A stretch of DNA of 64,000 bases from Caldilineales bacterium (GTDB lineage: Bacteria; Chloroflexota; Anaerolineae; J102): NCBI GenBank assembly GCA_037443945.1, contig JBBINH010000004.1, forward strand, positions 64,976 through 128,975, in the 5' to 3' direction. The position numbers were made by a program, and so were the translations under genes. Shown in pieces: positions 35,290 to 48,729 of this stretch. Under the pieces are notes generated by a model. The model ran no database searches and was not told the DNA's origin. It worked only from the letters and a program-made list of their open reading frames with translations. Every line of letters begins with the position of its first letter. Position 1 is the first letter of the stretch.

Positions 35290-35448
35290 AGGTCTGTAGT
35301 GTGGGGGATGAACCCAGGTCCTGTCAAAAAGGCAGGTGCCATGCTCCCCGATAGGATTTGCCTGCGCGTCTCGGTTGAATCCGGTTGGCTATGTTACACT
35401 CCGGGATGTCCGTTCCCTTTTCGCCTCGCTTTCCTTTGGCTTCGCCCT

Positions 35449-36000
35449 ATGCATAACGACATTGCCGAGATCCTGATTACCGAAGAACAGCTCCAGCGCC
35501 GCGTGCGCGAGCTGGCCGCCGAGATTTCGGCCGCCTACGCCGATAAGGAGCCGCTGCTTGTGGCCGTTCTCAAGGGAGGTGTGGTCTTTATGGCCGATCT
35601 CATGCGCCATCTGACCATTCATCATGCCATCGACTTTATGGCCACGTCGAGCTACGGCGCTGCCACCGAGAGCTCCGGGGTTGTCCGCATCCTCAAAGAC
35701 CTGGAGGAACCGATCGAGGGATTGGATGTGCTGGTGGTAGAGGACATCGTCGACAGCGGCAACACCCTGGACTATCTCCGGCGTCTGTTGTTGGCCCGCA
35801 ACCCGGCCAGCCTGCGCATCGTGGCCCTTCTCAGCAAACCCAGCCGTCGTTGCGTGGACGTGCCCATTGACTGGATCGGTTTTGAGATCCCCGACCGCTT
35901 TGTCGTGGGTTACGGTCTCGATTTCGCCGAACGGTATCGCAATCTGCCTTTCATTGCCGTACTCAAACCCGAAGCCTATGCCCGTGGCCCCGCCGGCTAG
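35449..36000 (+). CDS. hpt: Hypoxanthine-guanine phosphoribosyltransferase.
   Basis: PRPP-binding motif VLVVEDIVDSGNTL. Start at ATG 35449. Confidence 0.85.
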   Translation: MHNDIAEILITEEQLQRRVRELAAEISAAYADKEPLLVAVLKGGVVFMADLMRHLTIHHAIDFMATSSYGAATESSGVVRILKDLEEPIEGLDVLVVEDIVDSGNTLDYLRRLLLARNPASLRIVALLSKPSRRCVDVPIDWIGFEIPDRFVVGYGLDFAERYRNLPFIAVLKPEAYARGPAG

Positions 36001-36091: not shown

Positions 36092-38206
36092 TCAAGGCGT
36101 CTCCGCGGGGAACAGACGCAGCGCCGGATCGCCCAGGAGCGCAAAGGTGAGGAGGACATCTCGCTGTCCCCCCTGTCCGGGGTCGAGGCGGTGCAACGCT
36201 GCCCGCCAGGCCTCGCCAAGGGTGGCCTCATGAAAGAGATGATGGCCGAAAAGCGCCTGCGCCAGCACCTCCTGATCGCCGGGATAGGTTTCGGCCGTAG
36301 GCACCAAGGCCGCCACGATGCCGCTCGTGGGGCTCAGGACCAGCGCTTCGCCCAGGGATTGGCGTTGCGGATGGATGAAGTAGCCGCTGAGACAGGCCCA
36401 CATCAGCACAAGCCCGAGCCGATCTCCGGCCCGCAACTGCGCTACATCTTCCGTATGCAGGATGCCCTCTTGCGCCCATAAGTCGAGGGCGCCGTGTCCC
36501 ACGTAATTCAGCAGCCGTCGGCCTTCGTTTAGACTTTGTCGCAGAGCGACGCGCACATCGGCATCCACACCTATCGTCAGCGTCGTCGGGTGAAAGGCCT
36601 CCGGTAGGAGGGAAAGGAGACGGGCGTTGAAGTCGCGGAAGAAGGGGTCGTCATCATCGCTCACGAAGAGCATCTGCCGACGCCATGGGCCCGGCGGCAG
36701 CGCCTGCTCGTAGGTGAGCGTCTTGGCGACCATGGTGGCCACATCGGCCGGACTTTGCGCCGGAAAGCGGCCCACGGCCAGGTCGGGCCGTTCGTCGCCG
36801 TCCAGGTCGGCCAAGGCGGCGTCGCCTGCCGTTGCTCCTATGACTTGGGTGTGTACGGTGGCCGTCGGCACCAGGTTCTTGTAAGGTCCTTGCAGGTAGT
36901 CATAGGGATCATAACTGGCATCGCCTACCAGGAGTACAAAACGGGGCGTCGGCGGTGGCCATTCGGCTACGGCTTGGCGCAAAAAGGCCCTGATAGCCGC
37001 CGCCGTGAGGTGCCCGGCGCCGAACGCATCGGCAATTTGATCGGTGGTGACAAGCGCAGTGCGCAACCCCTGCTGTTGCCGCCAACGCAGGAGCGGTTCT
37101 ACCGCCGCCGTCAGGGAGGGATGGGCAATGGTGATATAATCGGCCCCGTCTGGGACGGCGGGAAGAGGCGCTATCGGCCGAATCGTGCGCGGGGACAACA
37201 ACGCCCCGGCGGTGGCCGCCCAATAGTGACCGGGGGTCTGGCTCGTCCGGCCAAAACGCAGCCGATAGCTCCCACCCATCTTGCTTACGAGGCCATCCGT
37301 CAGACGGCGTGGGGGCGTGGCGGCTACATCCCACAGCTCGATATCGGGGCCGGAAAACCCGCCGATCTCGACCACCGGCGCCGTGGTGACAAAGGCAATG
37401 GTGTCGTCTGTCGCCACCAGGCTACGGGTGTAGGTGATGACCACCCGGTTGAGATACATCAGTTCGACCGGCGCTCCGGTGTCGCCCGGCGCCGTCAGAC
37501 TCAGGATGTTCGAGCCTTCGCGCAGGGTGCCGGCGGGAACGGAGAGAACCAGGCGGCGGCGGCCGCGGCCATCCCAGGTCTCCTCGGCCAGAAAACGCCC
37601 GTTGAGGGCCAAACGCAGCCGATGGTCAGGCGCAACGGCCGCCTGGCTGGCCGACCACAGCTCGATGGCGAGCTGAGCCGGTTCGCTCGTCGGTCGGGAG
37701 AGCACGACTTCTGCGCTCAACTCGGCCGGCGCCAGCAGCCGATCACCCACCCAGGGGTCGCCCTCGGCGATGGCGGGCAGATAGGTGCGCCGGAACACGG
37801 CTTCCACGACGGCCAGCCCTGTCGTCGTCGCCGGCCCGCCGCGCGGCGGGGCCGGTTCGACCATCGCCACCTGACCCTGGGTCCGGCCGAGTCGATAAAC
37901 CGCCGGGCCTGCGGCCGGCACGCGACCGGGAAAACGCAACTCCCGGTTGCGGCCATGGCCGATGAGCGCAAAGGGCACCGGCCGGTTGCCGTCGTTCAGA
38001 GACAAAGCCTCGGCCTCCAGCCGGACCAAGTCCCAGCCGAAGGGCAGCAGATCGCGGCGCTCGAGGCGATAGAGCCCGTCCCGTTCGAGCACAAGGACCA
38101 AACCTTCGGCGGCCGGCGATGCCGGTGTGGGCCGGGCGCAGGCAACGGTTACCAGGCCGATGAGCAGGCTCCACACGATGCCGAGACGCCTGTAGACGGT
38201 GTTCAC
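36092..38206 (-). CDS. Secreted peptidase C25 (gingipain-type cysteine peptidase) family protein, paralog 1.
   Basis: N-terminal signal peptide. Catalytic-dyad context LLNYVGHGALDLW...(33 aa)...MWACLSGYF reproduces the gingipain His/Cys spacing. GTG start at 38204-38206 forms a GTGA overlap with the upstream gene stop; the longer ORF reaches 38242. Confidence 0.7.
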   Translation of the reverse strand: MNTVYRRLGIVWSLLIGLVTVACARPTPASPAAEGLVLVLERDGLYRLERRDLLPFGWDLVRLEAEALSLNDGNRPVPFALIGHGRNRELRFPGRVPAAGPAVYRLGRTQGQVAMVEPAPPRGGPATTTGLAVVEAVFRRTYLPAIAEGDPWVGDRLLAPAELSAEVVLSRPTSEPAQLAIELWSASQAAVAPDHRLRLALNGRFLAEETWDGRGRRRLVLSVPAGTLREGSNILSLTAPGDTGAPVELMYLNRVVITYTRSLVATDDTIAFVTTAPVVEIGGFSGPDIELWDVAATPPRRLTDGLVSKMGGSYRLRFGRTSQTPGHYWAATAGALLSPRTIRPIAPLPAVPDGADYITIAHPSLTAAVEPLLRWRQQQGLRTALVTTDQIADAFGAGHLTAAAIRAFLRQAVAEWPPPTPRFVLLVGDASYDPYDYLQGPYKNLVPTATVHTQVIGATAGDAALADLDGDERPDLAVGRFPAQSPADVATMVAKTLTYEQALPPGPWRRQMLFVSDDDDPFFRDFNARLLSLLPEAFHPTTLTIGVDADVRVALRQSLNEGRRLLNYVGHGALDLWAQEGILHTEDVAQLRAGDRLGLVLMWACLSGYFIHPQRQSLGEALVLSPTSGIVAALVPTAETYPGDQEVLAQALFGHHLFHEATLGEAWRAALHRLDPGQGGQRDVLLTFALLGDPALRLFPAETP

Positions 38207-39261
38207 GGCCCGTCTCTCCGGAGCGTGCGGCGATAGAACCATCCGCCGATGGCGATCAAAGCGCCGGCCACAGCCAAGGCGGCCAGACCGATGCGCACAA
38301 AAAGACCGGCTTCGCTTCCGTTCCGGTGCGAGGACGCCGCCGTTGTGGGCGGCAGACGCACGCCGAAGGCGTTGGGCGACGGGATCGATGTCACCCTCTC
38401 CGATGTGACGGTTATGGGCAACGAGACCGTTGCGGTCACGTCGGCGGCAAGCGTTGGCGCCGGCATCGCCGTGGGGGGCCGAGGTGAGGGCATCGGCGCC
38501 TCGACCCCGGCCGCAGGGGTGGACTCGACCACCGTCGGCGCCGTTGCGCCCGCACCGGGCATGGCCGTCGGTACGGGTGCGACCGTTGGCGGCACCGTGG
38601 GCGTGTCCCCAGGTCTATCCGCAGGGGGTGGCAGGGTCGAAGCCGATGTCGGCGTGGAGAGGAGCGATGGCGTGGCCGTTGATGGGGTTGGATCGGAGGT
38701 TACCGGTGTGGGTGTGGGCGTAGGCAGCGGGGTGGCCGTGGGTGAGGGTGTGGGCGTGGGTGTCGCCGTGGGCGAGGGTGTGGCCGTCGCCGTAGGGGAG
38801 ATGCGCACCGTCGGCGAAGGGGTCGGTGTGAGGGTAGGGAGAAGGGGGGTGAAGGTTGGCGTGGGTGTGGGGGGAGTAGCTCCGGGCAAGGATACCATCA
38901 CCGGGGGATGCGAAGTGAGTCGGCCGTAGCCGTCCATGTCGTCAAGCCGATACCAGTACGTATGGCCCGGCAGCACGGTGTTATCCTCGAAGCGATAATA
39001 GGCGCCTGTGACCACGTCCCCACGGGCCGGGATTTGATGGACCTGTTGCCAGGGCCCGTTTTCGTTCTCCGCGCGTTGGACCAGGAACAGCAGATTGTCG
39101 GGTTCGGTGGCCGTCTCCCACTCGATGAGAATACGCCTCGCTTCCGGCTGCGCCGTGGCTCGGAAGTAGAGCAGGGTCACACTGGCCTGGACCATGGCGG
39201 TCAGGGTCAGGTTCAAGCAAAACAGGCCGACGAGAACGGCAAGGCGCCGACCATACCTCAT
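38203..39261 (-). CDS. Pro/Thr-rich cell-surface protein: signal peptide, small beta (FN3-like) domain, long PT-rich linker, C-terminal TM helix with basic tail.
   Basis: N-terminal hydrophobic leader. More than 100 aa of PTPTPSPTATP low complexity. C-terminal LFVRIGLAALAVAGALIAIGGWFYRRTLRR anchor. Sandwiched in-operon between two C25 peptidase paralogs. Confidence 0.5.
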   Translation of the reverse strand: MRYGRRLAVLVGLFCLNLTLTAMVQASVTLLYFRATAQPEARRILIEWETATEPDNLLFLVQRAENENGPWQQVHQIPARGDVVTGAYYRFEDNTVLPGHTYWYRLDDMDGYGRLTSHPPVMVSLPGATPPTPTPTFTPLLPTLTPTPSPTVRISPTATATPSPTATPTPTPSPTATPLPTPTPTPVTSDPTPSTATPSLLSTPTSASTLPPPADRPGDTPTVPPTVAPVPTAMPGAGATAPTVVESTPAAGVEAPMPSPRPPTAMPAPTLAADVTATVSLPITVTSERVTSIPSPNAFGVRLPPTTAASSHRNGSEAGLFVRIGLAALAVAGALIAIGGWFYRRTLRRDGP

Positions 39262-39263
39262 GG

Positions 39264-41546
39264 CTAACGCAGGACAAGAGGCCAATAGAGGGCATCGGCC
39301 GGACCGGGCAGGCGCAAGGCCGGGTCGCCGAAGAGGGTCATGGTGTCGATCAGATAATGAGGGCCGCCGTGCTCCTGGTAGTAGGCCTGCTGTGCCGCCA
39401 GGAGGGCCTCACCCAGGGTGCGCCCGGCGTCGTCGAAGAGCGCCGCCATCAGCAATTGCCGAAAACGGTGCTGGTCGAGAGTCCAACCCAGCCCGGAGGG
39501 CGAAATGGCGGCAATGGCGCCGCCATCGGCCCGGCGCTGCATGACCTCGGCCAGGGCAAACAAACCGGGTTGAGGATGGGCAAAGTAGCCGTCCAAGCAA
39601 TTGAAGGTGAGGACAACCGGTAACCGCGGCGCATGAGGACTCAGTTGGGCTACATCAGCGGTCGTCCAGATCGATTCGTGGGCCCAGCGATTGGGCGCAC
39701 CGTGTCCAGCGTATTGGACCATAAACACGCCCGCGTTCAGGGCCGCGGCGATGGCCTGGCGCGCGGCGTCGCCGCTGGTCACCGTGCTCCCCAGATAAAC
39801 CCGTTGCGGGATCAGGTCGACCGGGACATGCGCGGCGATGATGGCATCGCTCAAGGCCGGAAAAGCGCCTGCCTCATCCTCGTTATCGGCCACGAACAAG
39901 ATACGGCGTTGCCAGAGCTCCCGGCGGCGGTCACCGTCGTAGGTCTCGATTTTGGCCACGACGGCTTCGGCTTCGGCCAGGGTATTGACGGCAATGCGGC
40001 CCACGGCCACATCGGGTAAACCGTCACCGTTGGCATCGCCGTAGCGGCTGTCGGCAGGCACCTCGCCCTGCCAGGGATCCACCCAAGCCAGGAAAGGCGG
40101 GACATGCTGCGGTTGGGGCGGGTAGAGGGCCGGATTGTAGCCCTTGAAGTTCCAATGGCCGTCGCCGAAGAGCACAAGATAGCGCGGTTTGGGTTCGGGC
40201 CAGTGGGTTTGGGCCCAGGCCAGCAGCGCCGGTATCGCCCGGGGATGGTTGATGCCGTCATGGAACTCGTCCACGGCATCGGCCCAGAGGACTACCCGCG
40301 CCGAACGACCCTGTCGCTCATGCCAGGCGGCCAGCCGTTGCGCCGCCGGGGCCAGTTCATCGGAGGTGACGATGACCACCTCATATCCCCTGTCCGGCGT
40401 CCGCAATCCGGTAGGCGGCCGCAGGCGCAGAGTGGCCGGCTGCCGGAACGTGGCCTCGTCCTGAAGCCAGTAGCGGGCACCGGCCCCGGCCCGGCTGCGA
40501 AAGCGCAGACCCTGGCCCACCGCGCCCGTCTCCGGCCGCGCACCCACCAGACGTTGCGGCCGGGTCGGATCGGTGATCTCCCAAATGGCGACCCGATGGG
40601 CCCGGTCCCAGCCATCGCTGGCGTACTCCTGAGGGCCATCCTGTTCGGTGGCGAAGGACAGCCACTCCTCCCAGGCGCGGAACAGGCGTCGGTACTCAAG
40701 CTGCCAATAGTTGACATAAAGCCAATCGGCCGATGTGGGCGGCAGGTTGAAGGCGCTGATGCTCACCTCGTTACGACCATGGGCGAACAGCGAGGCCGAA
40801 ACGGGCATGGTAAAGACGCGGGTCGTTTTGCCGGCCCAGGTGTAATCGCCCACCGGAGCGGTGCCAACGGCGATGCTCGTGCGGCGGTTGACCGCCGCGC
40901 GGCTGCTCAGTTCGACCGTGAGTCGAAAACGGCCTTGGGTGGCAGGGTAAGGCACGGTATAGGGCAATGTCACGGTGACTCCCTGGCCCACGCCCACCGG
41001 CCGCAGCTCGGCCCACAGCCAGGTATCGTAGGTGACCGGCGTGGCCGTGTGATAGGTGTACCAATAGCGGTTTTCCTCGGCCCGCACCACGGCGGCGAAA
41101 TCGGTTGGCGGCGCGCCATCACCCAGTGGGGTTGCCTCGATCTCGGTGATCCGTGGACCGGCCGCGGCGCCGATGTCGAGCCAGTAGACCCGTTCGTCGG
41201 TGTACTTTTCCACCATCGGATCCGCGCGCAAACGCTCGCCGAAGAACTCGATGCTATCGCCGGGATCAAAATGGCCGTCCGCCTCGCCGAGCACGCGTAT
41301 AGCGACCGGCTGACCCAGGCTGCTGAGGGCAAAAGTGCGGGGATCCACGGTCTCCACCGCCACCCCGGCCGTCCTCAGGTCCTCAGGGGTAAGGCGGTAG
41401 ATGCCGTCGGCCACGATGCCGATGCGCACGCGGATGACGGGCGTGGTCGCGTCGGCGGCCGATGCCTGTTGCGCCGTAGCCGGCAGGGTGAGAATAGGAC
41501 TGAACAGAAGGCCGATGAGCAGCGAGGCAACGATGGTGCTTCGCAT
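39264..41546 (-). CDS. Secreted peptidase C25 (gingipain-type) family protein, paralog 2.
   Basis: Signal peptide. MVQYAGHGAPNRW...(33 aa)...LTFNCLDGYF His/Cys dyad context. N-terminal domain similar to paralog 1. Confidence 0.7.
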   Translation of the reverse strand: MRSTIVASLLIGLLFSPILTLPATAQQASAADATTPVIRVRIGIVADGIYRLTPEDLRTAGVAVETVDPRTFALSSLGQPVAIRVLGEADGHFDPGDSIEFFGERLRADPMVEKYTDERVYWLDIGAAAGPRITEIEATPLGDGAPPTDFAAVVRAEENRYWYTYHTATPVTYDTWLWAELRPVGVGQGVTVTLPYTVPYPATQGRFRLTVELSSRAAVNRRTSIAVGTAPVGDYTWAGKTTRVFTMPVSASLFAHGRNEVSISAFNLPPTSADWLYVNYWQLEYRRLFRAWEEWLSFATEQDGPQEYASDGWDRAHRVAIWEITDPTRPQRLVGARPETGAVGQGLRFRSRAGAGARYWLQDEATFRQPATLRLRPPTGLRTPDRGYEVVIVTSDELAPAAQRLAAWHERQGRSARVVLWADAVDEFHDGINHPRAIPALLAWAQTHWPEPKPRYLVLFGDGHWNFKGYNPALYPPQPQHVPPFLAWVDPWQGEVPADSRYGDANGDGLPDVAVGRIAVNTLAEAEAVVAKIETYDGDRRRELWQRRILFVADNEDEAGAFPALSDAIIAAHVPVDLIPQRVYLGSTVTSGDAARQAIAAALNAGVFMVQYAGHGAPNRWAHESIWTTADVAQLSPHAPRLPVVLTFNCLDGYFAHPQPGLFALAEVMQRRADGGAIAAISPSGLGWTLDQHRFRQLLMAALFDDAGRTLGEALLAAQQAYYQEHGGPHYLIDTMTLFGDPALRLPGPADALYWPLVLR

Positions 41547-41629
41547 AATGAACGATTGCGCTATTGGCGAGAGGGTAGCCCAGGAGCTGCTTGTTGACCC
41601 GGACTGCCGCGGCTTTGGGGCAGGCGGCT

Positions 41630-43450
41630 TTAGCCTGCCGTGGCAGCATGGGCCAGAGCACGCGCCTGCTCGATGTAAGCCAGGCTCTGGTGACGAAAGT
41701 AGGTGTTGTAGAGGAGGGCATAGTGCCCACCGCGGGCCAGTAGGGCCGCATGGTGACCTTCTTCGACGATGCGACCCTTTTCCAGGACGATGATGCGGTC
41801 GGCCGCTTTGACGGTGGAAAGCCGATGGGCGATGACGATGCTCGTCGCCCGCGCGAGCATCAGGGTCACGGCTTCCTGGATCTGACGCTCGGTAAAGGGG
41901 TCGATGCTGGCCGTCGCCTCGTCAAGGATAAAAATGGCCGGTTGCTGGACGAGCACCCGCATCAGCGCCACCAGCTGGCGTTGGCCCAGCGAGAGCCATG
42001 CCCCGCGCTCACCGACTTCGGTTTGCAACCCTTGGGGCAGGGCCTCCAGCCATTCGCCATCGCCGATCTGACGGGCCAGGGCCATGATCTCGGCATCGCT
42101 GACCTCCGGCCGGGCATAACGGATGTTATCGGCTACCGTGCCCGCAAAAAGGAAGGGTGTTTGCGGGACGATCCCCAGGCAACGGCGATAGGCTGCCAGA
42201 TCAAAGGAGCGGATGTCGTGCCCATCGATGAGGATGCGACCTTCCTGAAACTCGTAGAACCGGGCCAACAGTTTGATGACGGAAGACTTGCCGGCGCCGG
42301 TATGGCCCACCAGGGCCACACTTTCGCCGGCACGGATGTGCAGATTGAAATCGTCGAGAACCTGTTCCTGCTCGCTGTAGCGAAAGCAAACGTGTTCAAA
42401 GCGGATGTCCCCGCGCAGGTGGCCGGGTCGGCGATGCTCGCGTTGGACGACGGCGGGCTCGGCCTCGATAAGGGCGAAGATACGTTCCGCCGCCGCCAGA
42501 CCGGCCTGCACCTGGGCCGAAAACGCCGCCAGGTTGAGGACGGGGAAGAAGAAACGCTCCAGGCTGCCGAGGAAGAGATACCAGGCGCCGGCGGTCACAA
42601 CCCCCGCCACCACGCTACGGCCGCCTGCCCATACGAACAAGGCCACGATGATACCGGACAGAGCATTGAGGATGGGGAAGACGCTGGCCAGCACCAACCC
42701 CCGGCGGACATTGACGGCATAGGAACGACGGTTGGCCGCGTCGAAATCGGCGTAGATGGCGCTCTCCTGCCGATAGTTTTTGGCCACGGCGATCCCGCTG
42801 ATGCTTTCCTTGATCCTGGCATTGACCACGGCCATGGCCTGCATCCCGCGGCGGGTCACCCGGCGCATCAGCCGCCGCAGGCTGCTGGCCGTGATGAAGA
42901 TGAGCGGGATGGTGGCAAAGAGATAGAGGCTAAGCTGCAGGTCAATGGCGATCAGCAAGCCTGCCAGCAGCAGGGCCTCGATGAGATGGGAGAGGGTGTC
43001 GGTGAGGAGCACGACAACATCGCCGAAGTCTTTGCTATCGGAGGTGATGCGCGAAACGATGCGACCGGAGGCATAGCGGTCGTAGAACGAGAGGTCATGG
43101 CGCACGGCCGCCGCCACGGCGGTGGTGCGGAGTTCGAAGACCACCTGGGCCAAGACGCGCGTGCTCAGCCGTCGCCGCCACCAATTCGTCGCCCAACTCA
43201 GGATACCGGAAGCCAGGACGGCCACCATGATCAGGGCGATCACCGGCGTTGTCGATCGCTTCTGGATCAGGTCCACCCCCCAGGCGACGATGACGGGCAA
43301 GGCGGCACCCGTCACGGCGATGGTGAGGAGAAGCAGGGCGATGAGCAGCAGCGACCGCCGGTGGGGTCGGAAGTAGCGCCACATGCCTCGGATCAGCGTG
43401 CGGTCGTCATACTGGCGGTCGTAGGCTTCGACATCGAGATGGCCGAACAT
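41630..43450 (-). CDS. ABC transporter, fused permease/ATP-binding (type I exporter half-transporter).
   Basis: 6-TM N-terminal domain. Walker A GHTGAGKSS, signature LSLGQRQ, Walker B ILDEATASID. Confidence 0.8.
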   Translation of the reverse strand: MFGHLDVEAYDRQYDDRTLIRGMWRYFRPHRRSLLLIALLLLTIAVTGAALPVIVAWGVDLIQKRSTTPVIALIMVAVLASGILSWATNWWRRRLSTRVLAQVVFELRTTAVAAAVRHDLSFYDRYASGRIVSRITSDSKDFGDVVVLLTDTLSHLIEALLLAGLLIAIDLQLSLYLFATIPLIFITASSLRRLMRRVTRRGMQAMAVVNARIKESISGIAVAKNYRQESAIYADFDAANRRSYAVNVRRGLVLASVFPILNALSGIIVALFVWAGGRSVVAGVVTAGAWYLFLGSLERFFFPVLNLAAFSAQVQAGLAAAERIFALIEAEPAVVQREHRRPGHLRGDIRFEHVCFRYSEQEQVLDDFNLHIRAGESVALVGHTGAGKSSVIKLLARFYEFQEGRILIDGHDIRSFDLAAYRRCLGIVPQTPFLFAGTVADNIRYARPEVSDAEIMALARQIGDGEWLEALPQGLQTEVGERGAWLSLGQRQLVALMRVLVQQPAIFILDEATASIDPFTERQIQEAVTLMLARATSIVIAHRLSTVKAADRIIVLEKGRIVEEGHHAALLARGGHYALLYNTYFRHQSLAYIEQARALAHAATAG

Positions 43451-43453
43451 GGG

Positions 43454-45250
43454 CTATTCCGCAAAAAGACGACGATAGGCGGGCGAAGTCCGCAAGAGGG
43501 TTTCGTGGTCCCCCATGGCAGCGATGCGTCCTTTGCGCAGGACGATGATCCGATCGGCCCAGCGGATTTGCGAGAGGCGGTGGGTGATGATCAACGTCGT
43601 GCGCCCGCGTGCGGCGGCGTAGATGGCCTGTTGGATTTTGTCTTCGGTAGCGCTGTCAATGGAGCTGGTCGCGTCATCGAGGATGAGGATGCGCGGATCG
43701 GTCAGAAAGGCGCGGGCCAGGGCCAGGCGCTGGCGCTGACCACCCGAGAGGGTGACCCCACGCTCGCCGACGACGGTGTCGTAGCCGTCTTTGAAGGCCA
43801 TAATGAAGTCATGCGCCTGGGCGGCGCGGGCGGCGGCTTCGATCGCCGCTCGCGTGGCGTCGGGTTTGCCAAAGGCGATATTTTCGGCAATGGTGCGCGA
43901 GAAGAGGAAGATATCCTGCTCGATCACGGCAATCTGGCGGCGCAGGGCCTCCAGGTTCCAATCGCGCACGTCCACACCGTCGATGCATACCCGCCCGGCG
44001 CCCACGTCGTAGGTGCGATTGACCAGTTTGACCAGGGTGGTTTTACCGGCGCCGGTCTGGCCGACAATGGCCACGGTCTGGCCCGGCGCCACGGTAAAGG
44101 AAATATCATGGAGCACCGGTTCGCCGTCTTCTTCGTAAGCGAAGGTCACGCCCTCGAAGGCAATATGACCGACCATCGGTTGCGCATAGCCGGTCGGGTT
44201 CTGGTCCAGATGGGTTTCACGGTTGATCAGGTCGAGGATGCGCCGGGCAGCGGCCAGACCCGACGAGACCTGCGAATAGGCGAAAAGGGAAACAAAGGTC
44301 GGAAAGTTCAGCATCTGCAAAAGGCCGAAGTAGGCGACCACATCACCGACGGTCAGCCATCCCCGATGCAACAGGAACAAAGCATGGCCCAGGCCGGCGG
44401 CCGCAGCCATGCCCAAAAACAGTAAGGGCAGAAAACGGGCTTCGACATTGCCCTGCCGCACCAGAGCACGACGAAAGGCTCCGGCGGCCTCGGCGAAGCG
44501 GCGGACCTCGGCCTCTTCCTGGACCGCCGCCTTGACCGTCTCAATGCCGTCCAGGACCTCGGCCAGGCGGGCGTTCATCCGACCGAAACGGGCCCGCACC
44601 TCATCGGTGATAGGGCGCAATTCGCGCAGATAGTGGGCCAGGGCCAGCACATAGAACACGATATACACGGCCGGTGTGATAACCAGGGCCGGATGGTAGC
44701 GCAGGGCCAGGAACAACGGCATGAACAAGAAAAAGCCCGAGCCGACAACCAGGTTGAGGCCGGGGTTGAACATCAGGTTGATCTCGCGCACGTCGTTGGT
44801 GGCGCGGGCCATGGTATCGCCTATCGGCTGCAGACTATGAAAGGTCATGCTCTTGCCCAACAGGCTGACATACAGCTCCTGGCGGATATCCCGTTCCAGG
44901 CGTTGACCGATCATCTCGGCACCGCCGTTGCGTCCGAATTGCAGCACGCTGCGGGCCAATTGCGTGGCGATGATCCACAACGCCGCCCGTCCGATGGCCG
45001 GGATATCCGGCGGCCTTTGCAGGACGGCATTGAAAGCCAGGCCGGTGTAGATCGGGATGGCTGCGGCCAGGGCGGCATTGCTGAAAGCGCCGATAAGCAT
45101 CACCACCCCCCATGGCCAGTGGCGCAGGCTATGGAAGAGCAACCAGCGCACGGCCCCGCGACGGTCGCTGCGATAGGGCAGGTGGAGGGTGAACTCGGCC
45201 GAAGCGGTGGCAGGGGTCATGGCAGCGTTACCGGATAAACCCGTTATCAT
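43454..45250 (-). CDS. ABC transporter, fused permease/ATP-binding (partner half-transporter; likely heterodimeric exporter).
   Basis: Walker [10 protein letters not shown], signature LSGGQRQ, Walker [12 protein letters not shown]. 4-nt gap to the downstream paralog. Confidence 0.8.
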
Positions 45251-45661: not shown

Positions 45662-47014
45662 TTATGACCGCTCCTCCACCACGAAGGTCGGTACCGTGGA
45701 ACCGCCGCCGGCCGTGACGTTGAGCAAAGCCACGGTCGAAAGGCGGGTCAAACAGCTTGACATAAACTCGCCGTCAAAGCAGAACGGCGCCGTGTCGAAA
45801 AGACGGGGGATGAGTTGGAGTCGACCGTCCACCAGGCCGGGATACGGCTCGGTGGGGATGGTGATGCGCTCTTGCACGATGTACGGCTCGGTCAGCGCCG
45901 TTTGCACGGCCGCGGCCCAGGCGCTATCGTCCACCTCCCAGCCCAGGACGATGCCTTTGCCACCGTATTCGTCGTTGGGCTTGAGGACAAGCTGCGCGCG
46001 ATGGGCGAGGACGAAGGGGATCAGATCGACCTGTTCGCCGTTGTATTCGGTATAACGCTCGGTCACGAGACGGGTCCAGGGCACATGGGCGCGAATGGCG
46101 GCGTTTTCCTCGGCGCTAAACAGGTGGCGATGGCGTTCATCGCTCAACACGGCCAGACTGGCTTTCTTATAGAGCAGTTTACAGGCCGGGGGATTGACCA
46201 TGCAGACGGCCCGGTCGCGCACGGCGCGCAGGATGGGCTGATCCAGACCGCCCCAACGTACCAACTCGGAGGTGAGCACGCGTTTGTAGATGAGATCGAC
46301 GGCAAAATCGCCGATATAGAGCCTGCCGTTCCGGTACTCCGCCGCACGCGGATCGGCGATGATGCACTCCAGCCCGTGGCTGCGAAAATAATCGGCAAAA
46401 AGAACGAACTCGGAATAGGTGGGCACCTCGCTCCAATCGAGGATGGCCACCCGCGGACGCTCACGCCGGCCCCGCCATTGCCGATAACTGTCGAGCAACG
46501 CATGAAGGGTATCGGCGCGCGCGGGCAAAGGTCGCACCTGATAGCGCTTCATGAACTCGCCCATGACCGGCAGCCCCAGAAAAACCTCCGAGAGGACATC
46601 GTTATAAGCCGCCGCCGCCGGCGTTTCGGCATTGTACTCGGTCACCTTCAGGGTCAAGGTGGCAGGGTCGAAGAAGGTGTCGAGACGGGCCAGAGGCGTC
46701 GGACTGCGATAACCGGGGTCTAGTCCGACCAGTTCCTCTTCCCACTCCAACAAACCGAACTGGCGTCGGAAGTCCGGATCGGCCAGGGCAAGGCGGTGGA
46801 TGCGGGCGAAGGCCGCCAGGAGACGGGCCACCCGCTGCTGAAGATAGCGGAAGTGCTCCGGGGTCAGGAAGCGCGGGCGCAGGACGGTGCACAGAGGCCG
46901 ATTGCCGAAGAAAAGACCGTAGCGTTGTTGCTGCTCGTCCAGTTGCGCCTGCGAGGCCTGGGCCAGCTCTTCGTCGAGCCGATCGTGGTAGAAGCGAATG
47001 GCGTCGTCTAGCAT
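45662..47014 (-). CDS. Circularly permuted ATP-grasp type 2 / glutathionylspermidine-synthetase-like amidoligase family protein.
   Basis: 450 aa. Sequence pattern and size consistent with the CP-ATP-grasp family. Last gene of a 4-gene minus-strand operon. Confidence 0.6.
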   Translation of the reverse strand: MLDDAIRFYHDRLDEELAQASQAQLDEQQQRYGLFFGNRPLCTVLRPRFLTPEHFRYLQQRVARLLAAFARIHRLALADPDFRRQFGLLEWEEELVGLDPGYRSPTPLARLDTFFDPATLTLKVTEYNAETPAAAAYNDVLSEVFLGLPVMGEFMKRYQVRPLPARADTLHALLDSYRQWRGRRERPRVAILDWSEVPTYSEFVLFADYFRSHGLECIIADPRAAEYRNGRLYIGDFAVDLIYKRVLTSELVRWGGLDQPILRAVRDRAVCMVNPPACKLLYKKASLAVLSDERHRHLFSAEENAAIRAHVPWTRLVTERYTEYNGEQVDLIPFVLAHRAQLVLKPNDEYGGKGIVLGWEVDDSAWAAAVQTALTEPYIVQERITIPTEPYPGLVDGRLQLIPRLFDTAPFCFDGEFMSSCLTRLSTVALLNVTAGGGSTVPTFVVEERS

Positions 47015-47035
47015 AGGTTGGCGACGGGGATGAAC

Positions 47036-47977
47036 TCACGCGGGCGCGCGACCGGCCGTGAACAGGGCGTCCCAGCGCAAATGGTGCACCTGCGGCCGCG
47101 GGTTTTTGGCCAGCCGGATGGCCATATCGGCCATATGCTTGACCGCCCACTCGAAATAAAACGGCGTCAAAGAATTGATATCCATATCCGGTGCCGGATT
47201 CATGAAATCGATGGCATAAGGAACACCACCGCGAATCGCCCATTCCACCGAGTTCATATCATAACCCAGCGCCCGCACGAGTTTGAGTGAATCTGCAACA
47301 ATACGCGCGCCTAATTCGGGTGTCAGATGCTCATGCTCGACGATGTATCTGCGCTCACGCGGGTCATATTTGATCGGCATGACCTCCTCTTGGCCCAGGC
47401 AAATACAGCGCACATAATGCTCCCATTCGATATATTCTTGCAAAATCATCGTGCGCAGACCGGTATGATTGTAATAGTAAATTAGCTCGTCTTTGCTATG
47501 ACAGATGAAAACGTCTTTCCAACCGCCGCCATGAGCATCTTTGAGCACGCAGGGTAAACCGACATAGGCGATAATTCCATCCCAATCAAGAGGATATTTG
47601 AGATTGCGTAAACTCTCTGTGTGAACAATTCCTGGAACATAATCTTTATTCGGCAAAACGACCGTTTTTGGCGAAGCAACTCCTAGTTTGGTTGCCAACG
47701 ACGCACCAAAAAACTTATCGTCCGCCGTCCACATGAAGGGATTATTAACGACAGTGACTCCTTGCAAAACGGCATGTTTCAAAAACGAGCGATAATAGGG
47801 GACTTCGTGCGAAATACGGTCGATGATGACGGCATAGGGCACGGGTTCATCCATCATGGTCCCGCCCAACATGACCATTTCGGCAATAACCCCTTCCTCG
47901 CGTCGATTGACTTCCTCGATAAAAGCCGGTGGAAACGACCATTCCCGTCCGACTAAAAGTCCTATTTTCAGCGTCAT
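47036..47977 (-). CDS. ATP-grasp ligase (RimK/glutathione-synthetase-like), markedly lower GC than surroundings.
   Basis: ATP-grasp motifs (LPCVLKDAHGGGWKDVF; ILQEYIEWEHYVRCICLG). Strong RBS CAGGAGG 6 nt before ATG 47975-47977. Local GC visibly near 50% versus 65-68% in flanks. Confidence 0.7.
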   Translation of the reverse strand: MTLKIGLLVGREWSFPPAFIEEVNRREEGVIAEMVMLGGTMMDEPVPYAVIIDRISHEVPYYRSFLKHAVLQGVTVVNNPFMWTADDKFFGASLATKLGVASPKTVVLPNKDYVPGIVHTESLRNLKYPLDWDGIIAYVGLPCVLKDAHGGGWKDVFICHSKDELIYYYNHTGLRTMILQEYIEWEHYVRCICLGQEEVMPIKYDPRERRYIVEHEHLTPELGARIVADSLKLVRALGYDMNSVEWAIRGGVPYAIDFMNPAPDMDINSLTPFYFEWAVKHMADMAIRLAKNPRPQVHHLRWDALFTAGRAPA

Positions 47978-48012
47978 AGCCACCCTCCTGTACAGACGAT
48001 GCAAGCCATCCT

Positions 48013-48729
48013 TCAATCATGACCGCTCAGGTACAGCCGGATCATCTGCTGCCACCAGGGCCAGTCGTGGGCCCATCCCTTCCAGATGCGCAGCGCATGC
48101 CAGATACCCTTGTCCCACAGCAACTGCGAGAAACGTTCGGTATCCCCGCGGCGAGGTTCGGTCTCGCTGGTGGTCAGGATGATGTCCATCCGGCGCATGG
48201 CGGCCAGACGATGGGGATCGTGCTCGTTGGCGATAAAATCAACGGGATTGTGAAAATAGACATTGTCATCATAGTGGCCGTCCAGCCATTCGCGGATGTC
48301 GTACACGCCGTTCATGGCCAGCACGCGGCCGACGAGTTCGGGGTAACGAAAGGAAAAATTGACGGCATGATAGGCGCCGAAACTGGCCCCGGTGACGATG
48401 AGGAAGGGGTTGGGATTTTGTTGGGTGAAAGGGATCACCTCGTGGCGCAGGTACTGGTCGTATTGCACATGCCGCCAGGCGCGATCACCGGGCCATTTCC
48501 AGCGAGCATACCAGCTCTCTTCGTCCACACTGTCCACACAAAACACCTGCAGCCAGCCACGTTCGATCGGGTCGGCCATGACGGCGATCATGCCCCGGTC
48601 TTCCCATTCGTAAAACCGCCCTTTGGAGGTCGGGAAAACGAGCAAGCGGGCGCCGGCGTGCCCGAAGACGAGCATTTCCATATCCCGGCCCAGCGCCGGA
48701 CTGTACCAGCGATGGTACTCGCGCTTCAT
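48013..48729 (-). CDS. Esterase-family alpha/beta hydrolase.
   Basis: GASFG nucleophile-elbow (GxSxG) motif. Putative-esterase family pattern. Confidence 0.55.
   Translation of the reverse strand: MKREYHRWYSPALGRDMEMLVFGHAGARLLVFPTSKGRFYEWEDRGMIAVMADPIERGWLQVFCVDSVDEESWYARWKWPGDRAWRHVQYDQYLRHEVIPFTQQNPNPFLIVTGASFGAYHAVNFSFRYPELVGRVLAMNGVYDIREWLDGHYDDNVYFHNPVDFIANEHDPHRLAAMRRMDIILTTSETEPRRGDTERFSQLLWDKGIWHALRIWKGWAHDWPWWQQMIRLYLSGHD

What the first reader, a model, noticed from the sequence alone, without database searches (positions are those of the whole stretch)
36092..45250. Operon of heterodimeric ABC exporter, gingipain-type C25 peptidase, Pro/Thr-rich anchored protein and a second C25 peptidase paralog
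Both large secreted proteins reproduce the C25 catalytic dyad spacing (GHG...W then Cys 33 residues later in a C-x-x-G-Y-F context). They flank a surface protein with a long PT linker and a C-terminal TM anchor plus basic tail, and stop/start codons overlap (GTGA at 38203-38206). C25 peptidases are best known from Bacteroidota T9SS cargo. Here paralogs bracket a candidate substrate or anchor protein, hinting at surface-protein processing or attachment, e.g. a sortase-like transpeptidation analogue.
Basis: partly seen in the sequence, partly recalled or inferred. Interest (0 to 1): 0.6.

Follow-up and report, generated by a model that had tools for sequence, protein, structure and literature searches.

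The report
PorU-like peptidase pair with stalk protein
A Chloroflexota bacterium carries a widely conserved three-gene module, two intact PorU/gingipain-family cysteine peptidases flanking a membrane-anchored stalk protein, which probably processes or attaches cell-surface proteins in a phylum not known to have the secretion system these enzymes normally serve.

Summary
Five co-directional, tightly packed genes lie at 36092-45250 on the minus strand. They encode two ABC half-transporters, a C25 peptidase (C25a), a Pro/Thr-rich anchored protein (Mid) and a second C25 peptidase (C25b).

Both peptidases match Pfam Peptidase_C25 (E 3e-77 and 4e-79). Their His/Cys dyad is invariant in 78 and about 40 orthologues. 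[quoted passage not shown] They miss PorU's curated cut-off and have no T9SS C-terminal domain.

The conserved unit is C25a-Mid-C25b, complete in 36 of 48 Chloroflexota loci with enough flank. The ABC pair is adjacent in only 8-9 of 46.

- **C25a** is secreted and ends in a short "R-x-Y-L-P-L-V-x-K/R" tail shared with many unrelated secreted proteins.
- **C25b** is a lipoprotein.
- **Mid** is signal peptide, FN3-like head, about 180-residue Pro/Thr stalk, membrane helix and basic tail.

FN3-like proteins of this type lay within 10 kb of a C25 peptidase in 5 of 6 blind look-ups.

My best reading is a surface-protein processing or attachment machine. The catalytic mechanism and substrates are inferred, not shown. 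I found no description in the curated libraries or the searched literature.

The parts
43454..45250 (-). ABC1, a half-transporter (membrane domain plus ATPase). It carries the canonical LSGGQ signature, but Asp replaces the catalytic Glu (ILILDD). It is a lineage-specific neighbour, not part of the conserved core.
   Evidence: Pfam ABC_membrane 7.6e-30 and ABC_tran 9.8e-34. Best NCBIfam matches are MsbA/TAP-like, all below cut-off. Motifs. Adjacent in 8-9 of 46 loci.
41630..43450 (-). ABC2, the partner half-transporter. It has a degenerate signature (LSLGQ) and the canonical Walker B plus Glu (IFILDE). There is a 3-nt gap after ABC1.
   Evidence: Pfam ABC_membrane 9.4e-29 and ABC_tran 8.6e-29. 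Motifs. Coordinates.
39264..41546 (-). C25a, a secreted PorU-like C25 cysteine peptidase. It has an N-terminal signal peptide, beta-rich N-terminal domains (about residues 36-385) and a C25 catalytic domain (residues 391-746, 40376-39309). The His615 codon is 39704-39702 and the Cys650 codon is 39599-39597. The C-terminal tail is ALYWPLVLR (39293-39267).
   Evidence: PF01364 3.3e-77. PorU is the best hit in NCBIfam, PDB sequences and Foldseek. AF2 model has mean pLDDT 83.6. His and Cys are invariant in 78/78 orthologues. The tail motif is present in 61 of 120 homologues.
38203..39261 (-). Mid, a stalk protein. It has a signal peptide with AxA-type cleavage directly before SVTL, an FN3-like head (39195-38881), a 178-residue Pro/Thr linker, a membrane helix (38292-38236) and the basic tail YRRTLRRDGP. 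An alternative TTG start lies at 39285.
   Evidence: No Pfam or NCBIfam hit. The AF2 model of the head has pLDDT 95.9 and an FN3 fold. The same architecture is seen in about 45 orthologues. Composition.
36092..38206 (-). C25b, a lipoprotein-type PorU-like C25 peptidase. Its GTG start overlaps the Mid stop (GTGA 38206-38203), with an alternative ATG at 38242. It has a lipobox-like LVTVAC and a C25 domain at 37138-36113. The catalytic His codon is 36496-36494 and the Cys codon is 36394-36392. It has no YLPL tail.
   Evidence: PF01364 3.6e-79. PorU is the best hit. His is invariant in 40/40 and Cys in 39/39 orthologues. A lipobox Cys is present in nearly all orthologues. It is 28% identical to C25a over 751 columns.

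Best explanation
**Shown**
- The conserved core is a three-gene module of Chloroflexota.
- C25a is a secreted PorU-like C25 peptidase that ends in a YLPL-type tail.
- Mid has an FN3-like head on a Pro/Thr stalk of roughly 180-200 residues, held in the cytoplasmic membrane by a C-terminal helix.
- C25b is a lipoprotein PorU-like C25 peptidase.
- Both enzymes keep the catalytic His/Cys dyad.

**Inferred**
- The three proteins form a cell-surface machine that processes Sec-exported proteins at their C-terminal ends. It either trims a short sorting tail (consensus [R/H]-x-[I/V/L]-Y-L-P-[L/I/V]-x-x-[K/R]-end) or, like PorU, resolves the acyl-enzyme by transfer to an acceptor. The result would be to release or attach surface enzymes and adhesins.
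- C25b acts at the membrane. C25a is itself a tail-bearing client and acts further out. Mid positions or tethers the machine across the wall through its stalk and FN3 head.
- In this window's lineage a heterodimeric ABC exporter is co-transcribed and may supply an exported partner molecule. It is not part of the conserved core.
For: - **C25 membership and invariant dyad:**
- **Closest relative is PorU over the full length, including the N-terminal domains:** NCBIfam alignment spans residues 40-751; PDB phmmer; Foldseek 6e-30 over 812 columns, against about 385 columns for gingipains.
- **PorU is an established C-terminal signal peptidase and sortase-type transpeptidase that keeps its own sorting domain:** PMC11285876. 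C25a likewise carries the tail found on putative clients.
- **Synteny:** the triad is complete in 36 of 48 loci across Anaerolineae, Caldilineales, Thermoflexales and other Chloroflexota MAGs, with part of the module in Ardenticatenaceae and Herpetosiphonaceae loci.
- **Complementary localisation signals are conserved:** a lipobox in C25b; a Sec signal peptide plus tail in C25a; signal peptide, stalk and membrane helix in Mid.
- **The YLPL tail ends unrelated secreted proteins:** DUF11, FG-GAP, SpaA, LamG, arylsulfotransferase, M23 and SdrD proteins. About 10 non-C25 ORFs carry it in the loci, against roughly 1 expected from my rough residue-frequency estimate.
- **The FN3-like family is linked to C25 peptidases:** small FN3+YLPL genes lie inside or beside the cassette in L006, L018 and L057, and next to a PqqD gene in L080. 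Five of six FN3 proteins looked up blind have a C25 peptidase within 10 kb.
- **A second C25 clade also ends in YLPL tails:**
Against: - No direct evidence of cleavage or transpeptidation.
- The PorU model scores are far below its cut-off (226 and 193 against 420), and there is no T9SS C-terminal domain.
- The FN3-like domain is generic in fold and occurs across phyla with other tails.
- Genome-wide co-occurrence of YLPL tails with the cassette could not be tested.
- In the 64-kb window the only tail-bearing protein is C25a, and its tail is degenerate (YWPL).
- Mid has no universally conserved motif next to its helix.
- About 12 of 48 loci lack a complete triad, and solo C25a paralogues exist.
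- Many related loci carry a peptide, PqqD and HprK-like set, which points to a peptide-centred function.
Confidence: 0.4

Rival explanations
1. Nutritional or degradative surface proteases. C25a and C25b are gingipain-like endopeptidases displayed on the cell, one lipid-anchored and one docked on the Mid stalk. They digest environmental proteins for a peptide-fermenting filamentous Chloroflexota bacterium. The ABC exporter is an unrelated neighbour.
For: Family C25 is best known for gingipains, and the catalytic domains align with RgpB and Kgp. Metagenomic surveys already count C25 among the extracellular peptidases of Chloroflexi MAGs (PMC8359207). An acidic residue aligns with the RgpB S1 Asp163 in 69 of 78 C25a sequences.
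Against: The proteins are closer to PorU than to gingipains over their whole length. They have no Propeptide_C25 and no adhesin or haemagglutinin domains. Strict pairing with a stalk protein across classes and linkage to FN3/YLPL proteins are not expected for bulk proteases.
Confidence: 0.22
2. Maturation peptidases of an exported small peptide, in the manner of a RiPP (ribosomally made, post-translationally modified peptide). A cytoplasmic precursor is bound by a PqqD-type recognition protein, modified by an HprK-like enzyme and exported by an ABC transporter. The extracytoplasmic C25 peptidases then trim or ligate it, in analogy to LanT/LanP.
For: In 32 of 83 loci the cassette is interleaved with three components. 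These are a conserved 40-60 aa peptide (..KPYxxPxIxHELxLE[TV]RAGSPLG..), a PqqD-like gene and an HprK/ScmC-like gene. A second C25 clade sits with another peptide family, an HprK-like gene, a Peptidase_S24 gene and an ABC transporter, including a locus in Ca. Brocadia. The window has an ABC exporter directly upstream.
Against: The window and all 12 ABC-type loci lack the peptide, PqqD and HprK-like genes. No conserved small ORF lies upstream of ABC1. Two multidomain peptidases of 700 aa or more plus a stalk protein are an unusual outfit for leader removal. No cyclase or radical-SAM partner was seen.
Confidence: 0.2
3. Fibre or sheath assembly by protease-triggered polymerisation. Small secreted FN3-like proteins with hydrophobic YLPL tails are subunits. 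C25 cleavage licenses strand insertion between subunits, as Arg-gingipain does for type V pilins. Mid is the membrane-anchored base.
For: Small signal-peptide/FN3/YLPL proteins are encoded inside or beside C25 cassettes. The tail is a short, beta-strand-like hydrophobic segment preceded by a basic residue in 43% of cases. Mid carries the same FN3 head on a membrane-anchored stalk. That the C25 protease Rgp matures type V pilins is established knowledge, recalled from memory and not checked here.
Against: The window has no small FN3/YLPL gene. The FN3 fold has no obvious open groove in the model. No polymer evidence exists. The tail also ends large enzymes that are unlikely to be fibre subunits.
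Confidence: 0.1

Closest known systems
PorU, the T9SS C-terminal signal peptidase and sortase of Bacteroidota (PDB 6ZA2; NCBIfam NF033707)
   Same: Best hit by profile, sequence and fold over both the N-terminal beta domains and the C25 catalytic domain. The His/Cys dyad is conserved. The enzyme itself carries the C-terminal signal found on its putative clients, as PorU keeps its own C-terminal domain (PMC11285876).
   Different: Scores are half the curated cut-off. There is no T9SS C-terminal domain, and the protein ends right after the catalytic domain. The host phylum is Chloroflexota, where T9SS and the A-LPS acceptor are not known. It occurs as a fixed pair of paralogues, one secreted and one a lipoprotein, with a stalk protein in place of PorV/PorQ/PorZ.
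Gingipains RgpB and Kgp (MEROPS C25)
   Same: Same family and catalytic fold (Foldseek TM about 0.65 normalised to the target). The GHG and C-x-x-G motifs align.
   Different: No Propeptide_C25, no Ig-like or haemagglutinin domains and no T9SS C-terminal domain. About 390 extra N-terminal residues are shared with PorU.
Sortase with LPXTG, and exosortase or archaeosortase C-terminal sorting systems
   Same: The logic is similar: diverse secreted proteins share a short C-terminal signal, and a dedicated cysteine peptidase is encoded nearby. Mid ends in a hydrophobic helix plus a basic tail.
   Different: The enzyme fold is unrelated. No LPXTG, PEP-CTERM, PGF-CTERM or other curated sorting domain matches. 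The YLPL tail is only about 9 residues and has no membrane helix.
LanT/LanP-type export and extracellular leader removal for RiPPs, and PqqD/HprK-like peptide-modification cassettes (SynChlorMet ScmC/ScmD)
   Same: Related loci combine a short conserved peptide, a PqqD-like protein, an HprK-like protein, ABC exporters and extracytoplasmic peptidases.
   Different: All matches to ScmC and ScmD are far below cut-off (24 against 125 bits, and 43.5 against 100 bits). The window itself lacks these genes. C25 peptidases are not known RiPP proteases.
Heterodimeric ABC exporters with one degenerate ATP site (TM287/288- and MsbA-like fold)
   Same: Two adjacent half-transporters with complementary degeneracy: ABC1 has Walker-B Asp in place of the catalytic Glu, and ABC2 has signature LSLGQ.
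   Different: No equivalog model is reached. The substrate is unknown. The pair is linked to the C25 module only in the Caldilineales-type subclade.

Membership tests
Peptidase family C25 (Pfam PF01364) | Profile score above the curated gathering threshold | tested here: met
   260.7 and 267.1 bits against a cut-off of 23, over nearly the full profile
Peptidase family C25 (Pfam PF01364) | Catalytic His (G-H-G) and Cys (C-x-x-G) aligned with RgpB His211 and Cys244 and conserved in orthologues | tested here: met
   HMMER alignments. Invariant in 78/78 C25a, and in 40/40 (His) and 39/39 (Cys) C25b
Peptidase family C25 (Pfam PF01364) | Caspase-like alpha/beta catalytic fold | tested here: met
   The AF2 model (pLDDT 83.6) matches RgpB and Kgp at E 1e-17 to 1e-13, TM about 0.6-0.66 on the target. 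Only C25a was modelled.
PorU T9SS sortase (NCBIfam NF033707) | Score at or above the curated cut-off (420 bits) | tested here: not met
   225.8 bits (C25a) and 193.2 bits (C25b)
PorU T9SS sortase (NCBIfam NF033707) | C-terminal T9SS sorting domain retained on the enzyme | tested here: not met
   No TIGR04183 or CTD hit. The proteins end 14 and 6 residues after the C25 domain.
PorU T9SS sortase (NCBIfam NF033707) | N-terminal beta-domain architecture preceding the catalytic domain | tested here: met
   The NF033707 alignment covers residues 40-751. The Foldseek alignment to 6za2 spans 812 columns.
PorU T9SS sortase (NCBIfam NF033707) | Works with T9SS partners (PorV, PorQ, PorZ) and attaches cargo to A-LPS | not testable with these tools
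   Whole genomes were not available, and none of these genes was seen in the contexts examined. Absence of T9SS from Chloroflexota is background knowledge, not tested here.
Gingipains (Rgp/Kgp type) | N-terminal Propeptide_C25 (PF08126), followed by Ig-like or adhesin domains | tested here: not met
   No PF08126 or adhesin-domain hit at E<=0.01. A different C25 clade in L084, L087, L088 and L090 does have PF08126.
Sortase substrate (LPXTG cell-wall anchor) or other curated C-terminal sorting domains, tested on Mid | Motif plus membrane helix plus basic tail recognised by TIGR01167, PEP-CTERM, PGF-CTERM or similar models | tested here: not met
   Only sub-threshold, non-specific hits (best E 0.0064-0.85, below every cut-off) on C-terminal 50-mers. 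There were no hits on full-length Mid proteins.
Fibronectin type III fold (Mid head domain) | Seven-strand beta-sandwich matching solved FN3 domains | tested here: met
   AF2 pLDDT 95.9. Foldseek top hits are FN3 domains with TM 0.6-0.7. No Pfam sequence model matches.
Heterodimeric ABC exporter | Two adjacent half-transporters (membrane domain plus ATPase) with one degenerate nucleotide site | tested here: met
   Pfam domains. ABC1 has ILILDD with LSGGQ; ABC2 has IFILDE with LSLGQ. Heterodimerisation itself is inferred.

The most novel reading that the evidence does not exclude
Chloroflexota, and possibly anammox Planctomycetota, have an undescribed protein-sorting or attachment system. A short C-terminal "R-x-Y-L-P-L-V-x-K" tail, usually preceded by a particular FN3-like domain, marks Sec-exported enzymes and adhesins. 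Paired PorU-like C25 transpeptidases, one lipid-anchored and one tail-bearing, cleave the tail and transfer the protein to an acceptor. The acceptor could be the free N-terminus of the FN3 head of the membrane-anchored stalk protein Mid, or an exported peptide or glycolipid supplied by the PqqD/HprK-like or ABC modules. This would be a functional analogue of T9SS PorU sorting and of sortases in an envelope not known to have T9SS or A-LPS.
Probability: 0.3. Interest if true: 0.85.

Novelty: new variant of a known kind. Interest (0 to 1): 0.62.

Why it matters
How Chloroflexota build and decorate their unusual envelope is poorly understood. These are abundant filamentous bacteria of sludge, sediments and hot springs.

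PorU-type C25 enzymes are so far tied to the Bacteroidota T9SS. A conserved, catalytically intact PorU-like pair with its own stalk protein, in a phylum not known to have T9SS, would have three consequences:
1. It would extend C25 sortase-type chemistry to a new envelope type.
2. It would define a simple, searchable C-terminal tail that predicts the surface proteome of thousands of uncultured genomes.
3. It would give function to an unannotated FN3-like domain family with more than 8,000 cluster representatives.

It also warns against counting every C25 gene in metagenomes as a "gingipain-like" nutritional protease.

Tried and rejected
- **Word-indexed homology search with the Mid head domain alone:** found nothing. 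The exhaustive representative search was needed.
- **Idea that the head domain is a T9SS-CTD-like sorting domain:** rejected. It is an ordinary FN3 fold with no CTD model hit. It occurs N-terminally, internally and in tandem as well.
- **Known C-terminal sorting models on Mid tails:** no credible match.
- **The listing of cluster members for the taxonomy of tail-bearing proteins:** gave no organism names.
- **Rfam and tRNA scans of the window:** empty.
- **Promoter and terminator scan:** no more sites than in shuffled sequence, so uninformative.
- **Conserved small ORF or precursor peptide upstream of ABC1 in the ABC-type loci, and the peptide HMM on the window:** nothing found.
- **Literature searches:** combinations of C25/Peptidase_C25, PorU, gingipain, sortase, PqqD, HprK and exosortase with Chloroflexi/Chloroflexota/Anaerolineae found no description of this module. 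They found only a survey that counts C25 among extracellular peptidases.
- **Lasso-peptide reading of the associated peptide:** considered and set aside. The Asp/Glu position is inconsistent, and no cyclase or B2 protease was seen.


Full report
**1. What is in the window**

Between 36092 and 45250 five ORFs lie head-to-tail on the minus strand:
- ABC1, 45250-43454
- ABC2, 43450-41630, 3 nt after ABC1
- C25a, 41546-39264, 83 nt further on
- A Pro/Thr-rich protein that I call Mid. Its ATG at 39261 lies 2 nt after the C25a stop. An alternative TTG start lies at 39285.
- C25b. An upstream ATG at 38242 is also possible.

The region is 62-67% G+C, like the rest of the window. The window has no tRNA or Rfam match. 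A consensus promoter and terminator scan was uninformative.

The closest relatives come from Caldilineales and Anaerolineae MAGs, at 79-80% identity for C25a. The window therefore comes from a Chloroflexota bacterium.

**2. The two large proteins**

Both match Pfam Peptidase_C25 end to end, at E 3.3e-77 and 3.6e-79.

Against solved structures, the GHG His and the C-x-x-G-Y-F Cys align with RgpB His211 and Cys244. In alignments of orthologues drawn from 83 related loci, His and Cys are invariant: 78/78 for C25a, and 40/40 and 39/39 for C25b. The His-Cys spacing is 35 and 34 residues, not 33.

The two proteins are full-length paralogues, 28% identical over 751 columns at E 2e-54.

Their nearest characterised relative is PorU, not the gingipains:
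- NCBIfam's T9SS-sortase model aligns residues 40-751 of C25a at 226 bits and matches C25b at 193 bits. Both are below the 420-bit cut-off.
- phmmer against PDB sequences puts PorU 6ZA2 first, at 3e-19 and 7e-14, ahead of RgpB at about 3e-10.
- An AlphaFold model of C25a (mean pLDDT 83.6) matches PorU over 812 alignment columns at E 6e-30. Gingipains match only the catalytic domain, about 385 columns.

Neither protein has Propeptide_C25, adhesin domains or a T9SS C-terminal domain. They are C25 members and PorU-like. They are not members of the curated PorU family.

**3. The conserved unit**

Look-ups of homologues on long contigs showed C25-X-C25 without ABC genes. A scan of one genome per species returned 80 loci, all from Chloroflexota MAGs. 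These cover Anaerolineae/Anaerolineales, Caldilineales, Thermoflexales, Ardenticatenaceae, Herpetosiphonaceae and MAGs labelled "Chloroflexia". The scan patterns were specific to the C25a clade, so this does not prove exclusivity.

Mapping the genes across all loci:
- Of 48 loci with at least 3.5 kb downstream of C25a, 36 have the complete C25a-Mid-C25b triad and 6 have part of it.
- The ABC pair is adjacent in only 8-9 of 46 loci with enough upstream sequence. All of these belong to the subclade nearest the window.

The core is therefore the triad, and the ABC exporter is a lineage-specific addition. The ABC pair does look like a true heterodimeric exporter: ABC1 has ILILDD and LSGGQ, and ABC2 has IFILDE and LSLGQ.

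**4. Localisation signals**

- **C25b.** Orthologues almost always begin with a lipoprotein signal ending in L-A-[A/G]-C. The window version is LVTVAC. They end right after the catalytic domain.
- **C25a.** It has an ordinary signal peptide. In 61 of 120 homologues it ends in a short tail. Examples are LYLPLLVR, IFLPAMAR and VYLPLIAR. The window version is LYWPLVLR.
- **Mid.** Orthologues are uniform in architecture. A signal peptide is cut directly before [A/S]-V-T-L. Then come a roughly 100-residue domain, a roughly 200-residue linker that is 55-70% Pro/Thr/Ser/Ala, a membrane helix and a basic tail. In the window the linker is 51% Pro+Thr.

Before the helix there is only a subclade-specific [G/A]-R-[N/D] or an Asn-rich patch, with no universal motif. 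No curated C-terminal sorting model matches.

**5. The Mid head domain**

It has no Pfam or NCBIfam model. An exhaustive search found 8,575 cluster representatives at E<=1e-3.

The model is confident (pLDDT 95.9) and is an FN3-type sandwich. The family has the signature WETxxExDNxGF...YxYxLEDVDxxG..HGPV. Among segments from the best 150 proteins, it occurs in four settings:
- At the N-terminus of Mid-like proteins (40 segments)
- At the extreme C-terminus of diverse secreted proteins (42 segments)
- Internally (35 segments)
- In tandem

When it is C-terminal, a lineage-specific ending follows directly:
- The YLPL tail
- An RRPxYRPxLP tail
- A PRLIYGIGK-type tail
- A Cys-containing segment plus helix plus basic tail
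- A T9SS C-terminal domain

Named hits include Anaerolineae, Candidatus Brocadia and Kuenenia, Planctomycetes and a proteobacterial MAG. The domain is therefore a widespread "pre-anchor" module. It is not itself a Chloroflexota sorting domain.

**6. The YLPL tail**

Its consensus is [R/H]-x-[I/V/L]-Y-L-P-[L/I/V]-[V/I/L]-x-[K/R]-end. Most often four residues follow the Pro. A basic residue sits at position -2 in 43% of cases, against a background R+K frequency of 7%.

The tail ends proteins with DUF11, FG-GAP, SpaA-like, LamG, arylsulfotransferase, M23/PPC, LTD/nuclease and SdrD-B domains.

Among 1,754 ORFs of at least 150 aa in the loci, 40 carry it. About 10 of these are not C25a orthologues. 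A rough residue-frequency estimate of my own expects fewer than one.

Diverse passenger domains with a shared short C-terminal tail are the hallmark of a sorting signal. The enzyme C25a carries it too, as PorU carries a T9SS C-terminal domain that is not removed (PMC11285876).

**7. Link between the FN3/tail proteins and C25 peptidases**

Small signal-peptide/FN3/YLPL proteins are encoded between C25a and Mid in L006, L018 and L057. One more lies in L080, directly after a PqqD gene.

I then looked up six FN3-family proteins without knowing their neighbours. Five lie within 10 kb of a C25 peptidase:
- P0363 sits inside a C25-FN3-Mid-C25 cassette.
- P0278, P0271 and P0305 lie next to a second C25 clade. 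That clade has Propeptide_C25+C25+Big_5 and is 950-1,600 aa long.
- P0368 lies in a Candidatus Brocadia sinica contig with a C25 peptidase.
- P0357 has no C25 gene nearby.

The second-clade peptidases also end in YLPL tails, and one ends in the FN3 domain plus the tail.

**8. Further conserved neighbours, absent from the window**

In 32 of 83 loci the cassette is interleaved with three further genes:
- A conserved 40-60 aa peptide, ..RKPYxxPxI[IV]HELxLE[TV]RAGSPLG..DP.., found in 28 loci by HMM
- A PqqD-like protein, in 24 loci
- An HprK/ScmC-like P-loop protein, in 17 loci

A small membrane-flanked FN3 protein is often present as well. A typical order is small FN3 / HprK-like / peptide / C25a / PqqD / Mid / C25b.

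None of these loci has the ABC pair, and none of the 12 ABC-type loci, the window included, has the peptide set. No conserved small ORF precedes ABC1.

The second C25 clade combines another peptide family, a larger HprK-like protein, Peptidase_S24 and an ABC transporter.

**9. Interpretation**

Shown:
- Family membership and an intact dyad
- Whole-length similarity to PorU
- The conserved triad
- Complementary localisation signals
- A shared C-terminal tail on C25a and on many secreted proteins
- Genomic linkage between the FN3 family and C25 peptidases

Inferred:
- The triad is a surface-protein processing or attachment machine.
- The YLPL tail is its signal.
- Mid is a stalk or scaffold, or possibly an acceptor. 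Its mature N-terminus coincides with the start of the FN3 domain, at the position of the junction preceding C-terminal FN3 copies in putative cargo.

I give this reading 0.4. The rivals are surface nutritional proteases (0.22), maturation peptidases for an exported peptide (0.2) and protease-licensed fibre assembly (0.1).

The C25 assignment and the conserved bracketing are right, and the sortase analogy is reasonable. The ABC genes are not core, Mid shows no sortase-type signal, and the more telling features lie in the tail and the FN3 family.

**10. Novelty**

Neither the curated libraries (Pfam 2025, NCBIfam June 2026) nor the full-text searches describe this module, the tail or the FN3 subfamily. 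The only mention found treats Chloroflexi C25 genes as extracellular peptidases (PMC8359207).

I class it as a new variant of a known kind: PorU-type C25 enzymes in a new genetic and cellular context. If transpeptidation to a defined acceptor were demonstrated, it would amount to a new protein-sorting system.

Noticed in passing
L063:5300-14679 (typical); also L002, L018, L024, L041, L047-L052, L054, L058, L061, L064, L065, L075 and others: In 32 of 83 related loci the C25a-Mid-C25b cassette is interleaved with three further genes. These are a conserved 40-60 aa peptide (..RKPYxxPxI[IV]HELxLE[TV]RAGSPLG..DP..), a PqqD-like recognition protein and an HprK/ScmC-like P-loop protein. This set never co-occurs with the ABC pair and is absent from the window.
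   Followed up: partly
L084:4637-13338; L087:121-10522; L088:146-10703; L090:6452-20576: A second C25 clade (Propeptide_C25+C25+Big_5, 950-1,600 aa) also ends in YLPL tails. It is clustered with small FN3-like proteins, a second peptide family (..YEAPxVITYTxEEILEExGPAQA..), a 390-470 aa HprK-like protein, Peptidase_S24 and an ABC transporter. A closely related HprK-like gene (E 1e-148) and a C25 gene occur together in a Candidatus Brocadia sinica contig.
   Followed up: partly
window:38881-39195 (-); proteins P0121-P0386: The FN3-like domain with signature WETxxExDNxGF...YxYxLEDVDxxG..HGPV has no Pfam or NCBIfam model, despite 8,575 cluster representatives. It sits directly before lineage-specific C-terminal endings: YLPL, RRPxYRPxLP, PRLIYGIGK, a Cys-containing segment plus helix, or a T9SS C-terminal domain.
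   Followed up: partly
P0146, P0152, P0179, P0238, P0256; L002:5709-6128: Some proteins end with an isolated copy of the first FN3 strand (PTAVTLxxFxA), followed by a membrane helix and a basic tail. This looks like a distinct C-terminal anchor signal. L002:5709-6128 gives a weak, sub-threshold hit to the NCBIfam GVDTG_CTERM model (17 bits against a cut-off of 29).
   Followed up: no
L002:1-2202; L072:3977-5488; L018, L024, L025, L033, L056: Several cassettes have TMEM260-like/PMT-type protein O-mannosyltransferase and DUF4012 genes a few kb upstream. This would fit glycosylation of the Pro/Thr stalk.
   Followed up: no
P0022, P0032, P0049, P0051, P0058, P0061, P0109; upstream ORFs in L039 and L042: A subset of C25a homologues, and some neighbouring proteins, end instead in an extra domain with the tail ..VGEFDF[AS]LTPG. 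This is another recurrent C-terminal ending in these genomes. A further C25a subset ends in ..EPLTPPL.
   Followed up: no
L001:4755-15375: The closest long-contig relative with ABC genes appears to carry two tandem C25 cassettes, broken into fragments (probably frameshifts from the assembly). It has hpt downstream, as in the window.
   Followed up: no
window:33961-35289 (-), 35446-36000 (+), 45662-48016 (-): The neighbours of the operon are MurJ (the lipid II flippase), hypoxanthine phosphoribosyltransferase on the opposite strand, and upstream a circularly permuted ATP-grasp protein plus an unassigned 326-aa protein. hpt is also adjacent in L001 and L042, so this is local synteny rather than a functional link.
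   Followed up: partly
P0020 (1,032 aa; Pfam ABC_tran + Peptidase_C25); P0115 (named Nitrososphaerales archaeon): One homologue is called as an ABC-ATPase/C25 fusion, probably a gene-calling artefact of the ABC2-C25a junction. One C25a homologue is labelled archaeal, probably through mis-binning.
   Followed up: no
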